Source: Thermoproteota archaeon (GTDB lineage Archaea; Asgardarchaeota; Jordiarchaeia; Jordiarchaeales; Freyrarchaeaceae). From it: a stretch of DNA of 64,000 nt. The DNA lies in the NCBI GenBank assembly GCA_029258835.1, contig JAPDJY010000035.1, forward strand, positions 64,001-128,000, written 5' to 3'. Below the pieces are notes generated by a model. That model was given only the letters and a program-made list of their open reading frames with translations, searched no databases and was not told the origin of the DNA. Position numbers and translations under genes: made by a program. Below are positions 34,968-39,004 of this stretch, one piece after another (positions within the stretch are counted from its first letter, which is position 1; every line of letters begins with the position of its first letter).

Positions 34968-36494
34968 TTACACGGAAGAAAGCGCGACTTTCAGTACTTT
35001 TTCCATTTCGCTTAGTTCTAAGTCGAAGGAGTAAAAACGCTCCATCAAAGCAAAGACATCGTCTGGGGGTTCTCCTTCCCTCTTAGCCCAGAGCGTTTTC
35101 CCCGCAGTTGAACGCATTACCTCCCCATTTTTGACTATAATTTCCCCGCCTTTTATAGTGTATGCTGTTTTGGATAGGGCTTTAACCAGGGCCTCATAGT
35201 CTTTACTTGGATCCGTACTCTCTGGGTTGAAGTCATACACTGCCACATCTGCTTCCGCGCCACGTGAGAGGTTTCCTTTCCCATTTAACCCTAAGGCCGC
35301 GGCTGGACTACACCTAGTTACCATGAACAATTCTTGTAAGGTGAGCTCTTGGTCTAACTGTGAGAGTTGCCCGTTCTTATCCATTTTTTCTCTTGCTTTT
35401 TTACTTACAAGCCACGCTGCTACAAGGGGGTAATCTGATGCTAACCCACAGTTTGGATGATTCACTGTTAATTGCACTTTTGAGAGATCTTTCACGTTGA
35501 GAAGTAGTTTAAGTCCTACTGCCCAAAGCTCACCCAGTTTTTCTCCTACTTTAATTAGGGTTGAAACGCCCTCTATTTCGATTTGATCCAGAAAACTTAG
35601 TCTTCCAAGATGAGCGTAGGCGAGATACGGGTCAGAAGACGTCATGATTTTTCCTGTTAACGTAGTCTGCCCTATCTCGGCCTCTATGTTCGAAGCTGAA
35701 TTTATGTACTTGGCGAGTTCCTCAGCTTTTTCTTCTTCCTCTCCGAACGTGTAGAGCTGTGCATGCGCCAAGTGTACTTTTCCAACTTCCCTTAACTTTT
35801 CTAACGTTCTAACTGCTTTTTCGTATCCTCCCTTCTGTAAGGCGCCATCTGGATGGATGTGGAGAGGGGACGGTAGGTTAAGGATTTGCGAGGCTTTCAA
35901 AATGAACTCGGCATATTCCAAGGGACTTACTCCTAAATGTCTTATTTTTTCTTCCATTCCTTTCCACTCTCTTTTCCATGTCCAAGCCTCGGCGCTCAGC
36001 GGATTAACAAGTTTAATTCCATACGTTTTTGTTGTTCTTAGAAGCCATGCTATAGTGTCAGCGGCGGCTTTAACGTCTCCCTGCTGGGCGAGCGTTAACA
36101 GAAACCAGTTGGAGTCGAGGAGGAGTAGGCATGCTTTATCTAGTGAGTGGGCTTCTTGAAGCCAAAGGTGTGTGTGGAGAGCTCTTGAAAAGAATGTCCC
36201 GGACTCCACTATGAAGGTGTAACCATTCTTGAGGTATACTTCACCTGTTTCTCTTGGAAGAGGTACTTTTAAATTGATCATTTTAGCGAAACTTAACGTT
36301 TGCGCCGCTAAGTGGGTGTGGCAGTCTATCCCTCCAGGAACGACCATTTTCCCCTTTACATCTAAAACCTTGCTTTCCCTTTCGTCCACTTGATCCACGA
36401 TGAAGCCGTCCTTAATCATAATATCCATTTTTTCTCCTTCTATTCCGTTAAGCGGGTCAAAAACGAACCCGTTCTTCAATATTATTCCGCTCAT
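34968..36494 (-). CDS. fwdA: Formylmethanofuran dehydrogenase subunit A-like amidohydrolase (divergent)
   Basis: NGFVFDPLNGI, PGGIDCHTH, GYT, YGIKLVNP, LHIH, NHPN, GAEADVAVY and YTIKGGEIIV motifs. Confidence 0.85.
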   Translation of the reverse strand: MSGIILKNGFVFDPLNGIEGEKMDIMIKDGFIVDQVDERESKVLDVKGKMVVPGGIDCHTHLAAQTLSFAKMINLKVPLPRETGEVYLKNGYTFIVESGTFFSRALHTHLWLQEAHSLDKACLLLLDSNWFLLTLAQQGDVKAAADTIAWLLRTTKTYGIKLVNPLSAEAWTWKREWKGMEEKIRHLGVSPLEYAEFILKASQILNLPSPLHIHPDGALQKGGYEKAVRTLEKLREVGKVHLAHAQLYTFGEEEEKAEELAKYINSASNIEAEIGQTTLTGKIMTSSDPYLAYAHLGRLSFLDQIEIEGVSTLIKVGEKLGELWAVGLKLLLNVKDLSKVQLTVNHPNCGLASDYPLVAAWLVSKKAREKMDKNGQLSQLDQELTLQELFMVTRCSPAAALGLNGKGNLSRGAEADVAVYDFNPESTDPSKDYEALVKALSKTAYTIKGGEIIVKNGEVMRSTAGKTLWAKREGEPPDDVFALMERFYSFDLELSEMEKVLKVALSSV

Positions 36495-36913
36495 TCTCTA
36501 TTCCCTTCTACCTCTTCAATCATTTTCTTGATTTCTTCTAACGTAGTTACTTCACTACTGGTAACTTCCAACGTTGCCTTTACAAGATAGTAATGTTCTC
36601 CCCATGTAACCTGAATGTCCTTTTCGGAGATGGCATTAAACCATGGACCATTCGGCATAAGTGCTAATCCAGGTTTGGTTTCATCGCTTTCATATGCCTT
36701 AACTACAACGTTCCCATGATCGGTTGTGACCTTAACCTTATCCCCATTTTTCACTCCATTCTTTCCCATGTCTTCCTTGCTTAGAAGGATAACTGCCGTG
36801 GTTTCAACATATCCTTCCATGCCTTTCTCTGCTTTCTCGATCGATTGCTCGACAGAGCGAACTCCACAAATGGTGACCTCAAATTTAGGAGCTAAAAGCC
36901 TGAGTAGCGACAT
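36491..36913 (-). CDS. fwdD: Formylmethanofuran dehydrogenase subunit D-like
   Basis: Molybdopterin dinucleotide-binding domain (GDKVKVTTDHGNVVV, MPNGPWFN); first gene of the fwd cluster. Confidence 0.85.
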   Translation of the reverse strand: MSLLRLLAPKFEVTICGVRSVEQSIEKAEKGMEGYVETTAVILLSKEDMGKNGVKNGDKVKVTTDHGNVVVKAYESDETKPGLALMPNGPWFNAISEKDIQVTWGEHYYLVKATLEVTSSEVTTLEEIKKMIEEVEGNRE

Positions 36914-37027
36914 TCTAAGACGCTCCTTTCATTCAGGCTATTTTAGGCAAGCTTAAAATAAAACTTTTACCGCTTTTAATCCTCGATAGTTAAAAGGGCC
37001 ATAATGTTTGCTGGAGGCGGGAGCATT

Positions 37028-37882
37028 GTGAAGGGATGGCTATTCGAAATCTTCTCCTCCTACCAATCCTTACTAAAATAAGGGGTGAAGGGGAGGGTGG
37101 AAGCGTAAAGGGGTCAAATTACGGGAAGCGGACGATATAGGCCATCCGAGGGGCCGTCGACTTATCCGCTTCTCGGGGTGTAACATATGGTTAGGAGAGT
37201 TTGGTAGGCGAGGGTGTGGGTGGTGCGACACCTTAAACGGCGCCAGACGCCCCACGCCGCTCAGCCTAAATCTGAATATTTGAAGATATCAACAGTTGAA
37301 GAAGGCATGTTTCAAGTGAAAAATCCCGTGGAGCCAGGACTAGTTGTAGAATACGTTAAACGTGTCCACTCACCAGATGTTCACGCGATTTCCCTGACAG
37401 GAGGGGAACCATTATTTCAACTAGAGTTCCTCGCTTCAATAATGAAAGCCCTTAAAGGGGAAGGATACAAAACATACTTGGAAACCAACGGTTCAATGCC
37501 GGAACGAATGGATAAAATAGCATTCTTAACAGACTATTGTTGCTGTGATATTAAAGATGAAACGGCAGGTGCAGCAGAAAACTGGAGACGGCTCGTTGAG
37601 CTGGAGCTAAAAACAATAAGTATACTTATAGATAATGGTGTCAGCGTCTTCGCTAAGGTTGTCGTTACTTCGGAGACGAAGCCTGAAAACGTTGAATGGT
37701 ATGCATCAAAGCTTTCAAGGATGGACTGCCCGCTATGTATTCAACCGGTAACGCCTATAAGGAATTATAGGCCGCCTTCACAACGCCAACTCTTCAGCTT
37801 CACGGAGGCGGCAGCAAAACATCTTGGGAGCGATAATGTGGCCATATCTGTTCAAGTACACAAGTTTTTGGGTATACCTTAA
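37028..37882 (+). CDS. queE: 7-carboxy-7-deazaguanine synthase, split into 4 exons: join(37028..37066,37090..37138,37162..37229,37247..37882)
   Basis: Joined exons give 792 nt and 263 aa: MKGWLFEIFSSYQGEGGSVKGSNYGKRTIFIRFSGCNIWLGEFGRRGCGWCDTPHAAQPK...SLTGGEPL..YLETNG..DIK..QPV..QVHKFLGIP. Clustered with DUF366 and queD. Confidence 0.9.
37067..37089 (+). other. BHB mRNA micro-intron 1 of queE (23 nt)
   Basis: TCCTTACTAAAATAAGGGGTGAA. Central helix UACC/GGUG, bulges AA^U and AA^G, intron stem CCUUA/UAAGG. Contains in-frame TAA; removal restores Q|GEG. Confidence 0.88.
37139..37161 (+). other. BHB mRNA micro-intron 2 of queE (23 nt)
   Basis: AGGCCATCCGAGGGGCCGTCGAC. Central helix CGAU/GUCG, bulges AU^A and AC^U, intron stem GGCC/GGCC, exon stem GAAGCGGA/UCCGCUUC. 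Removal restores TIFIRFSGCN. Confidence 0.86.
37230..37246 (+). other. Relaxed-BHB mRNA micro-intron 3 of queE (17 nt)
   Basis: ACCTTAAACGGCGCCAG. Central helix UGCG/CGCC (3 of 4 pairs), bulges AC^A and AG^A, intron stem CC/GG, exon stem GGUGUGGG/CCCACGCC. Removal restores CGWCD|TP. Confidence 0.78.
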
Positions 37883-37896
37883 GGGGAGGCACCCAC

Positions 37897-38532
37897 TTGA
37901 ACTTGAAAAACTTGGAAGTAGTGGAACAGGCTCCTTTAACTGTGGCATTAGTTCCCTTTACTCATCATTTTCCATATACCGGAAGGGAAATAGCGCCGCT
38001 GTGGGCTCTGAAGACATTCGGCATACAGGGGGATTCCATAATCGTTTTCCGTGGTCCCCTTAGCGTTTTAGAGTCCGAACTCGTAGACGTGAAAGACCTT
38101 GTCTTTGAAGGAGGAAAAGGACGCCCTGTTATTTCGTCTAAGGATGCCATAAGCTTTATCATAGAACATTTTGATCAGCAACCACCATCTCTACGGCTAA
38201 TGTATCATAGACTTAGGATCATAGCGTTCCTTTTTAAGGAGCTTGCCGAGGAAAAATGCGGCTTAAGGCTTCAACGTGACGGTACAGACACATACTTTAA
38301 TGGAGGAAAACTTAACGTTGGGGTGGCAACAGTTTCCTCGGGATCCGGAAAAATCCATTTTGCAATAAACATTTCCGTTGAGGGAGCGCCTCCCGGAATC
38401 AAAGTAGCAAGCCTCCTAGACTTAGGCGTTAGCGAAGGTGAAGTCGAGTCGTTTGCTGTTTCCCTCGCTAAACGTTACAGGCGTGAGATACTAGACGTTG
38501 AGAGTGACGTTGCGAAATCTAAAACCTTCTAA
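37897..38532 (+). CDS. DUF366 family protein (que-cluster associated)
   Basis: YTGREIAPLWA, GDSIIVFRGP, FIIEHFD, RDGTD, KLNVGVAT and KIHFAINI motifs. Confidence 0.85.
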   Translation: MNLKNLEVVEQAPLTVALVPFTHHFPYTGREIAPLWALKTFGIQGDSIIVFRGPLSVLESELVDVKDLVFEGGKGRPVISSKDAISFIIEHFDQQPPSLRLMYHRLRIIAFLFKELAEEKCGLRLQRDGTDTYFNGGKLNVGVATVSSGSGKIHFAINISVEGAPPGIKVASLLDLGVSEGEVESFAVSLAKRYRREILDVESDVAKSKTF

Positions 38533-38542
38533 GGGTGATAAG

Positions 38543-39004
38543 TTGCCCTACAGGCTTACGGTTGAAAGAGCAGACTTAACGTTTTCAGCTGCCCATTTCC
38601 TCCTCAAACATGAGAAGTGTGCCCGTTTACACGGTCATAACTATAAGGTTAGGGTGGAAGTTGCTTCCGACCTTTTAGATGGAAAACACATGGTGATCGA
38701 CTTCTTTTCCATAAGAGAGCTGGCTAGAAAGGCGTGCGAACCGTTGGATCATCGCGTTTTAATACCAGCTAAGTCTAATGAAATCTCGATTAAAGAATGT
38801 GAAAACGAGGTTGAAGTTGTTCTCACCGACCGGAGGTACGTTTTCCCCAGAAGCGATGTAGCGTTACTACCTTTAGAAGCCACAACTGTAGAAAAAATTG
38901 CTGAATATCTCTATGCGAAGATTAGGGAGAAGCTCCCGGAAGGTTTTAATCTTAAGGTCTCAGTAGAGGAAGCTGAAGGAGCTATAGCAACGTTTGAACT
39001 ATAA
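38543..39004 (+). CDS. queD: 6-carboxy-5,6,7,8-tetrahydropterin synthase
   Basis: FSAAHF, CARLHGHNY, VIDF, LDHRVL and TTVE motifs; start set at TTG 38543 after GGGTGA. Confidence 0.92.
   Translation: MPYRLTVERADLTFSAAHFLLKHEKCARLHGHNYKVRVEVASDLLDGKHMVIDFFSIRELARKACEPLDHRVLIPAKSNEISIKECENEVEVVLTDRRYVFPRSDVALLPLEATTVEKIAEYLYAKIREKLPEGFNLKVSVEEAEGAIATFEL

What the first reader, a model, noticed from the sequence alone, without database searches (positions are those of the whole stretch)
37067..37283. All three introns are 3n+2 and each retention hits a stop: an AND gate tying archaeosine-precursor synthesis to tRNA splicing
Seen: the lengths are 23, 23 and 17. Keeping intron 1 stops at 37079, keeping intron 2 stops at 37138, and keeping only intron 3 stops at 37281. 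All three sit in conserved motifs. Established: QueE and QueD make preQ0 for archaeosine (G15 of tRNA). Inference: QueE output depends steeply on EndA/RtcB availability, a possible post-transcriptional link between tRNA maturation and tRNA modification. Alternatively these are neutral parasites that persist in sites where imprecise loss would destroy function.
Basis: inference. Interest (0 to 1): 0.7.

Follow-up and report, generated by a model that had tools for sequence, protein, structure and literature searches.

The report
Three tRNA-type introns split queE
A gene for a tRNA-modification precursor enzyme in an uncultured Asgard archaeon is broken by three tiny introns of the kind normally cut out of tRNAs; they look real and conserved, but nothing shows they act as a regulatory switch.

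Summary
The QueE-like radical-SAM gene (window 37028-37882, + strand) is interrupted by inserts of 23, 23 and 17 nt (37067-37089, 37139-37161, 37230-37246). All are 3n+2, and retaining any one gives a stop at 37079, 37138 or 37281.

All three fit the bulge-helix-bulge (BHB) rule of archaeal tRNA splicing: cutting after the second base of each bulge rebuilds YQ|GEG, KRTI(F)IRFSGCN and WCD|TPHAAQ. The same three sites are interrupted in all 11 genomes of the order (Jordarchaeales/Freyarchaeia, Asgard). The same rule restores a 263-275 aa frame in each, and the stems carry compensatory changes. EndA (two paralogues) and RtcB are present. No RNA data were available.

The "AND gate" reading is not supported:
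- In relatives the insert lengths fall in all three classes (15 are 3n, 8 are 3n+1, 10 are 3n+2), and 3 of the 33 can be read through without a stop.
- I confirmed the same kind of intron in 17 other genes of this genome, including ppsA, ahcY, leuC, dnaG, EF-1alpha and cbf5.

One point stays unexplained: three introns in one gene is unlikely under uniform insertion.

Earlier reports of this scan had already noted this intron system elsewhere in the same genome. In the papers I could search, only cbf5 is published as a spliced archaeal coding sequence.

The parts
37028..37882 (+). QueE-like radical-SAM gene (probable 7-carboxy-7-deazaguanine synthase): four exons, 792 nt spliced, 263 aa from GTG 37028 (an upstream in-frame ATG lies at 37004), stop TAA at 37880-82.
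   Evidence: Uninterrupted orthologues score best on the five NCBIfam QueE models but far below their cut-offs.
37028..37066 (+). Exon 1 (39 nt), ending ...EIFSSYQ.
37067..37089 (+). Intron 1, 23 nt, canonical hBHBh'. Central helix 37061-64 with 37084-87; bulges 37065-67 and 37088-90; inner stem 37068-72 with 37079-83; in-frame TAA at 37079-81.
   Evidence: Across 11 genomes 165 of 165 cells are paired, and all 5 inner-stem pairs show compensatory changes.
37090..37138 (+). Exon 2 (49 nt): GEGGSVKGSNYGKRTI plus the first base of the Phe codon.
37139..37161 (+). Intron 2, 23 nt, relaxed BHB. Central helix 37133-36 with 37156-59; bulge 37137-39; 5-nt second bulge 37160-64; inner stem 37140-43 with 37152-55; 11-bp outer helix 37122-32 with 37165-75. 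TAG at 37138-40 straddles the 5' junction.
37162..37229 (+). Exon 3 (68 nt): (F)IRFSGCNIWLGEFGRRGCGWCD, carrying the radical-SAM cysteines.
37230..37246 (+). Intron 3, 17 nt, the weakest BHB of the three. Central helix 37224-27 with 37041-44 read as 37241-44 (3 pairs plus a U.C mismatch); bulges 37228-30 and 37245-47; 2-bp inner stem. If retained, the frame runs to TGA at 37281-83.
   Evidence: Its position was fixed by relatives, where the helix is a perfect UGCG/CGCA and the same rule restores WCD|TPHA.
37247..37882 (+). Exon 4 (636 nt including the stop): TPHAAQPKSEY... to the C-terminus.
37897..38532 (+). DUF366 gene, uninterrupted (context).
   Evidence: PF04017, E 2.6e-51.
38498..39004 (+). 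QueD/PTPS gene, uninterrupted (context; preQ0 pathway).
   Evidence: TIGR03367, 80.8 bits; PF01242.

Best explanation
The gene encodes the only QueE-like radical-SAM enzyme of an Asgard archaeon (Jordarchaeia/Freyarchaeia). Its pre-mRNA carries three bulge-helix-bulge micro-introns. They are most likely cut by the tRNA-splicing endonuclease EndA (two paralogues, probably an alpha-beta heterotetramer) after the second base of each bulge. RtcB then most likely joins the exons, giving a 263-aa reading frame. I read the introns as constitutive passengers. They were gained in the common ancestor of the order, in a lineage whose tRNA genes, and at least 17 other protein genes, are full of the same intron type. 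They are kept because the exon half of each BHB lies in slowly evolving, motif-coding sequence where imprecise loss would destroy the enzyme. All three must be removed, but that is true of any multi-intron gene and is not evidence of a regulatory gate. Shown: anatomy, conservation, covariation, restored frames, presence of the enzymes. Inferred: actual splicing, constitutive efficiency, neutrality.
For: - BHB geometry places the cuts exactly where the conserved motifs are rebuilt.
- In all 11 genomes of the order one structural rule restores a 263-275 aa frame, although intron lengths vary: intron 1 is 20-26 nt, intron 2 is 18-30 nt, intron 3 is 15-30 nt.
- For intron 1, 165 of 165 cells are paired and all 5 inner-stem pairs show compensatory changes, against 57-68% paired in the slid controls.
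- The spliced product aligns without junction gaps to uninterrupted orthologues from other Asgard families.
- Identical DNA occurs in contigs from four other studies.
- EndA (two copies) and RtcB are present and intact.
- Length classes in relatives are 15, 8 and 10 for 3n, 3n+1 and 3n+2, and 3 of the 33 introns can be read through.
- The same intron type is found in ppsA, a small GTPase, dnaG, ahcY, L44e, Tes, hypD, leuC/hacA, pimt, gatE, cbf5, aIF2gamma, EF-1alpha, kae1 and others.
- ARAGORN finds 25 tRNA genes, 20 of them with introns. PMC11291895 reports that 92-95% of tRNA genes in Freyarchaeia and Atabeyarchaeia carry introns.
Against: - No spliced RNA has been seen.
- Intron 3 in this genome has only three pairs plus a U.C mismatch in its central helix, and the minimum-energy fold prefers another register.
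- Intron 2 has a 5-nt second bulge.
- Three introns within 180 nt of one gene is improbable under uniform insertion. In my census 18 of 705 genes have one intron and none has two, which gives about 0.008 genome-wide, or 0.06 if half were missed. Something beyond neutral drift, either site preference or selection, may therefore act on this gene.
- The census is biased towards genes shared with one relative.
Confidence: 0.68

Rival explanations
1. Regulatory gate. Because three introns must all be removed, QueE output rises steeply with EndA/RtcB capacity. This would couple preQ0/archaeosine supply to tRNA maturation.
For: All three retentions truncate the protein here, as do 30 of 33 in relatives. 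The clustering of three introns in one gene is unlikely by chance. QueE feeds a tRNA modification, and two other RNA-modification genes (cbf5, kae1) also carry introns. Yokobori et al. raised a down-regulation role for the cbf5 intron (PMC2738675).
Against: The 3n+2 pattern is not conserved, and three introns in relatives are stop-free 3n. Most intron-bearing genes have nothing to do with RNA modification. QueC, arcTGT, QueD and DUF366 are uninterrupted. Sister Asgard lineages run the same gene without introns. There are no expression data.
Confidence: 0.17
2. Decaying pseudogene or assembly artefact. The inserts would be frameshifting damage or errors, and no protein is made.
For: Taken alone, the unspliced reading frame is broken three times.
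Against: The same three sites are interrupted in 11 genomes, with the protein conserved at 52-67% identity and the frame restored by one rule. Compensatory changes are present. Independent contigs carry identical DNA. It is the only QueE-like copy, and the pathway partners are intact.
Confidence: 0.03
3. Translational recoding. Ribosomes would frameshift or bypass the inserts without RNA splicing.
For: Yokobori et al. note that other researchers confused the gene prediction for the cbf5 intron genes with translational frameshifting (PMC2738675).
Against: Bypassing 15-30 nt three times, including inserts with in-frame stops, has no known signal here. The covarying BHB geometry, with cut sites that fit the splicing rule, is left unexplained by recoding.
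Confidence: 0.02

Closest known systems
BHB intron in the cbf5 pre-mRNA of Crenarchaeota (Watanabe 2002; Yokobori 2009, PMC2738675)
   Same: A short intron (16-44 bp there, 15-30 nt here) inside a coding sequence and in a catalytic motif. It has a BHB or relaxed BHB, is cut between the second and third bulge bases, and occurs in organisms with a hetero-oligomeric EndA. Lengths vary between species, including 3n forms.
   Different: There are three introns in one gene instead of one. The gene is a QueE-like radical-SAM enzyme and the phylum is Asgard. Splicing is not yet shown by cDNA. This genome's own cbf5 also has a 27-nt intron, at G|AC of the catalytic Asp codon, the same spot as in Crenarchaeota.
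Archaeal tRNA and rRNA BHB introns (EndA cleavage, RtcB ligation)
   Same: The same motif, the same cut rule and the same enzymes. The lineage is extremely rich in tRNA introns (PMC11291895).
   Different: The host RNA is an mRNA. The exon arms of the helices are made of codons, so correct excision is also constrained by the reading frame.
HAC1/XBP1 unconventional splicing (Ire1 cleavage, tRNA-ligase or RtcB joining)
   Same: It works alike in outline: a small non-spliceosomal intron is removed from an mRNA by an endonuclease plus the tRNA ligase. In XBP1 a 26-nt (3n+2) intron causes a frame switch. This comparison rests on my own knowledge.
   Different: That system is a stress-regulated switch with a dedicated sensor nuclease and twin stem-loops, not a BHB. 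No regulation is shown here, so it is an analogy and not membership.
BHB element in the 5' UTR of Haloferax volcanii HVO_1309 (PMC7714728)
   Same: An mRNA substrate of the archaeal splicing endonuclease.
   Different: That element lies in an untranslated region. The ones here interrupt codons.

Membership tests
Archaeal BHB intron in a pre-mRNA (cbf5 type) | Two bulges separated by a 4-bp helix, flanked by helices. | tested here: met
   Intron 1 is canonical 3-4-3 with both flanking helices. Intron 2 has 4 bp plus an inner stem but a 5-nt second bulge. Intron 3 has 3 bp plus a U.C mismatch here and a full 4 bp in the sister genus. Introns 2 and 3 are relaxed forms.
Archaeal BHB intron in a pre-mRNA (cbf5 type) | Cutting after the second base of each bulge gives an in-frame junction that restores the protein. 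| tested here: met
   This holds for 33 of 33 introns in 11 genomes, giving frames of 263-275 aa. There are no junction gaps against intron-free orthologues.
Archaeal BHB intron in a pre-mRNA (cbf5 type) | Structure conserved through compensatory change while sequence and length drift. | tested here: met
   Intron 1: 165 of 165 cells paired, all 5 inner pairs compensatory, slid controls 57-68%. Introns 2 and 3: stems differ between genera in the register table. The automatic alignments for these two were poor.
Archaeal BHB intron in a pre-mRNA (cbf5 type) | Splicing endonuclease and RtcB ligase encoded in the genome. | tested here: met
   Two PF01974 (EndA) genes at 105.7 and 82 bits, and RtcB at 606.9 bits. 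That one copy is catalytic and the other structural is my reading of the sequences.
Archaeal BHB intron in a pre-mRNA (cbf5 type) | Spliced RNA observed (cDNA or RNA-seq junctions, or circular intron). | not testable with these tools
   No RNA run was listed for this DNA.
QueE (7-carboxy-7-deazaguanine synthase) | Score above the curated cut-off of a QueE equivalog model. | tested here: not met
   Uninterrupted orthologues score at most 47-49 bits against cut-offs of 200-300. The QueE models are nevertheless the top or near-top hits. PDB QueE 4njg matches at E 8e-6 over the N-terminus only. I therefore call the gene 'QueE-like'.
QueE (7-carboxy-7-deazaguanine synthase) | N-terminal E-x-F-x-S-x-QGEG motif, the F-x-R-x-x-GC strand and a C...CxxCD[ST] cluster motif. 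| tested here: met
   The spliced sequence reads EIFSSYQGEG...RTIFIRFSGCN...CGWCDT. That these motifs are typical of QueE is from my own knowledge.
QueE (7-carboxy-7-deazaguanine synthase) | Pathway context: QueD, QueC and archaeosine tRNA-guanine transglycosylase. | tested here: met
   QueD lies two genes downstream. QueC scores 181.6 bits and TGT 274.4 bits, with a second TGT-like gene, elsewhere in the genome.
Regulated unconventional mRNA splicing (HAC1/XBP1-like switch) | Splicing efficiency changes with a signal and controls protein output. | not testable with these tools
   No transcriptome data. The comparative data give no support.

The most novel reading that the evidence does not exclude
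The triple intron is not a passive passenger. By requiring three independent EndA/RtcB events within the first 220 nt, the cell would make QueE output an ultrasensitive read-out of spare tRNA-splicing capacity. That would be a primitive splicing-based control of a tRNA-modification pathway in the closest prokaryotic relatives of eukaryotes. More broadly, this would be the first multi-intron protein-coding gene in Archaea.
Probability: 0.15. Interest if true: 0.85.

Novelty: new member of a known kind. Interest (0 to 1): 0.6.

Why it matters
In the papers I could search, cbf5 is the only archaeal coding sequence shown to be spliced by the tRNA machinery (PMC7714728, PMC2738675). A gene with three such introns, conserved across an Asgard order and sitting in a genome where at least 17 other genes carry one, suggests that this kind of mRNA splicing is routine in this lineage. 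That affects gene calling, because such genes are annotated as fragments or pseudogenes. It also bears on how tolerant the archaeal relatives of eukaryotes are of interrupted genes. Finally, it offers a compact substrate (263 nt, three sites) for testing EndA/RtcB splicing of mRNA in vitro. The specific 'AND gate' claim would matter only if isoform data showed regulated splicing.

Tried and rejected
1. Genome-wide de novo scans for BHB plus ORF restoration. I tried strict and relaxed motifs, ORF-length tests, codon and hexamer coding models, start-codon filters and bulge-base filters. Observed counts never clearly exceeded position-shifted nulls, because gene boundaries dominate, so I abandoned this route. 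I replaced it with homology to a fetched relative genome, G011.
2. RNA evidence. No RNA holder was listed for this stretch, so splicing could not be observed.
3. First placements of intron 3 (17-20 nt around 37239-37261, giving WCDTLNGAQ or WCDTLNAQ). I rejected these because no register fitted the cut rule. Relatives instead fix the junction at WCD|TPHA.
4. Automatic alignment and RNAalifold for introns 2 and 3 across both families misaligned the variable stems. I used the register-based table instead.
5. Literature searches for queE introns or Jordarchaeia mRNA introns found nothing specific.
6. A candidate intron in the gene matching G011 ORF o1692 (C10:52731-52758) and several weak split-HSP cases were left out of the census as unconvincing.

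Full report
**What is there.** Window 37028-37882 (+) holds a radical-SAM gene whose N-terminal 220 nt switch frame three times. It lies between the formylmethanofuran dehydrogenase genes fwdA/fwdD (minus strand) and a DUF366 gene followed by queD. The inserts are 37067-37089 (23 nt), 37139-37161 (23 nt) and 37230-37246 (17 nt). Spliced, the exons (39 + 49 + 68 + 636 nt) give a 263-aa protein. It aligns over residues 2-262 with uninterrupted orthologues (50.6% identity, E 6e-95) and has no gap at any junction.

**Are they BHB introns?** The archaeal rule is a cut after the second base of each 3-nt bulge flanking a 4-bp helix (PMC2738675 states it for cbf5).
- Intron 1 is textbook. The helix is UACC/GGUG, the bulges are AA^U and AA^G, there is a 5-bp inner stem and an outer helix, and the junction is YQ|GEG.
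- Intron 2 has the helix CGAU/GUCG, the bulge AU^A, a GGCC/GGCC inner stem and an 11-bp outer helix. Its second bulge is 5 nt. It splits the Phe codon of KRTIFIRFSGCN.
- Intron 3 took the relatives to place. In the sister genus the exon bases UGCG (the Cys codon plus the G of Asp) pair with CGCA or CGUA in the intron. Cutting two bases after each strand gives WCD|TPHA in every genome. In this window the matching helix has three pairs plus a U.C mismatch.
- The minimum-energy fold of the whole 263-nt leader contains BHB 1 and BHB 2 as drawn, but uses another register at intron 3.

**Comparative test.** The ten other genomes searched in the same order all carry interruptions at the same three sites (family f1 genus g2, family f2 genus g3). 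Record titles name them Jordarchaeum, Jordarchaeales and Jordarchaeia.
- With one set of structural anchors, every genome gives an open 263-275 aa frame. Intron lengths differ: 20-26, 18-30 and 15-30 nt.
- Frame restoration across all three length classes cannot be explained by pseudogenes or sequencing error.
- For intron 1, RNAalifold recovers the BHB unaided. In it 165 of 165 cells pair and all five inner-stem pairs show compensatory changes, while slid controls pair at 57-68%.
- Orthologues in other Asgard families, including two Helarchaeota records, have no insert at any site. The three introns therefore date to the ancestor of the order.
- Contigs from four other studies hold the identical DNA.

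**Machinery and pathway.** The genome encodes two EndA paralogues and an intact RtcB. From their sequences, one paralogue keeps a Tyr/His/Lys-like set and the other lacks the His. I read this as an alpha-beta heterotetramer, the type known to accept relaxed BHBs (PMC5829648 abstract). That reading is an inference. QueC, arcTGT and a second TGT-like gene are present and uninterrupted. The enzyme is best called QueE-like. The QueE models are the best or near-best NCBIfam hits, but at 47-49 bits against cut-offs of 200-300. The QGEG, FxRxxGC and CxxCD motifs and the queD neighbourhood support the function.

**Testing the 'AND gate'.**
- First, the 3n+2 pattern is peculiar to this genome. Over the 33 introns the classes are 15 (3n), 8 (3n+1) and 10 (3n+2). 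Three introns are stop-free 3n (L003 intron 3, L007 intron 1, L008 intron 3).
- A stop after a non-3n insert is expected by chance. Any insert in these motifs would probably inactivate the enzyme anyway.
- Second, I asked whether such introns favour RNA-modification genes. De novo scans were too noisy. I therefore fetched a 1.42-Mb relative, G011, and looked for G000 genes whose alignment to a G011 protein is broken by a short insert with a 4-bp BHB helix.
- That search, together with motif reading in contig C27, gave introns in the genes listed below. Names come from NCBIfam hits of the uninterrupted G011 orthologues, except kae1, hypD and the PflX-like gene, which I named from sequence motifs; two other genes have no name.
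- Two of these 17 modify RNA (three of 18 with queE), and four more serve translation. The rest are metabolism, lipid synthesis, replication, signalling and repair.
- The census is biased towards conserved genes and is too small for a formal enrichment test. It does show that the introns are a genome-wide feature and not a device of the archaeosine pathway.

| Gene | Intron length (nt) |
|---|---|
| PEP synthase (ppsA) | 19 |
| small GTPase | 32 |
| DnaG | 31 |
| AhcY | 23 |
| L44e | 29 |
| PflX-like radical SAM | 27 |
| LIMLP_15305-like protein | 27 |
| Cbf5 | 27 |
| GatE | 30 |
| tetraether lipid synthase Tes | 55 |
| small zinc-finger protein | 20 |
| LeuC/HacA | 29 |
| PIMT | 25 |
| HypD | 17 |
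| aIF2gamma | 30 |
| EF-1alpha | 43 |
| Kae1 | 14 |

- Without queE, the lengths split 5, 5 and 7 over the three classes.
- ARAGORN finds only 25 tRNA genes, 20 of them with introns. This fits the report that 92-95% of tRNA genes in Freyarchaeia and Atabeyarchaeia are interrupted (PMC11291895).

**What remains odd.** Among the 705 genes with a G011 orthologue, 18 candidates carry one intron (one of them, o1692, unconvincing) and none carries two. The queE-like gene carries three within 180 nt. A Poisson model gives about 3e-6 per gene, about 0.008 over the genome, or about 0.06 if I missed half the introns. Either intron gain and retention favours runs of highly conserved, helix-forming motif codons, or selection acts on this gene. 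In favour of site preference, introns here sit in the P-loop of EF-1alpha and aIF2gamma, in the catalytic Asp codon of cbf5, in the CGTH motif of hypD, and at or beside the Cys-cluster motif of three radical-SAM genes.

**Comparison with the literature.** The papers I could search report coding-sequence BHB introns for cbf5 only, plus a 5'-UTR element in Haloferax (PMC7714728, PMC2738675). Searches for queE or Jordarchaeia mRNA introns found nothing. Earlier reports of this scan had already noted BHB introns in other genes of this same genome. I re-derived ten of those cases independently.

**Verdict.** These are real BHB mRNA introns with about 0.9 confidence, with RNA proof still missing. 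The regulatory 'AND gate' has no support beyond the unexplained clustering, and I put it at about 0.15-0.2.

Noticed in passing
G000:C27:11929-11955 (+), outside the window: This genome's cbf5 carries a 27-nt BHB intron between the first and second base of the catalytic Asp codon (GTL D|P). Yokobori et al. describe exactly this position for the crenarchaeal cbf5 intron (PMC2738675). The orthologue in G011 is uninterrupted. This points to either an ancient shared intron or a repeated gain at one site.
   Followed up: partly
G000:C27:28832-28874 and C27:26080-26109 (-): The paralogous GTPases EF-1alpha (43 nt) and aIF2gamma (30 nt) are both split at the same P-loop position, GHVDHG|K. Both use the same central helix CGGC/GCCG and AA bulges.
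   Followed up: partly
G000:C27:22172-22185 (-); G011 ORFs o2205 and o1377: kae1 has a 14-nt intron (FSQGPG|LGPC). In the 1.4-Mb relative G011 of another family, kae1 is also split into two adjacent ORFs at the same place. mRNA introns therefore reach beyond the order.
   Followed up: partly
G000:C19:4619-4673 (-), C1:136638-136664 (-), window 37139-37246: Three different radical-SAM genes (tetraether lipid synthase Tes, a PflX-like gene, and the QueE-like gene) each have an intron at or next to the cysteine-cluster motif.
   Followed up: no
Whole genome G000: ARAGORN finds only 25 tRNA genes in a 95%-complete genome, 20 of them with introns. Many tRNA genes are probably too interrupted to be detected.
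   Followed up: no
All BHB introns listed: The first base of both bulges is A in nearly every intron (AA^, AG^, AT^, AC^). This may be a lineage-specific preference of the endonuclease.
   Followed up: no
window 34968-36913 (-): Genes for formylmethanofuran dehydrogenase subunits A and D lie directly upstream of the queE-like gene, on the other strand, in a non-methanogen lineage.
   Followed up: no
G000:C6:39796-40056 region (L040:862-1785): The second EndA paralogue sits at the C-terminus of a 308-aa open frame whose first ~130 residues are low-complexity and Ser/Thr/Pro-rich. The true start may lie further downstream.
   Followed up: no
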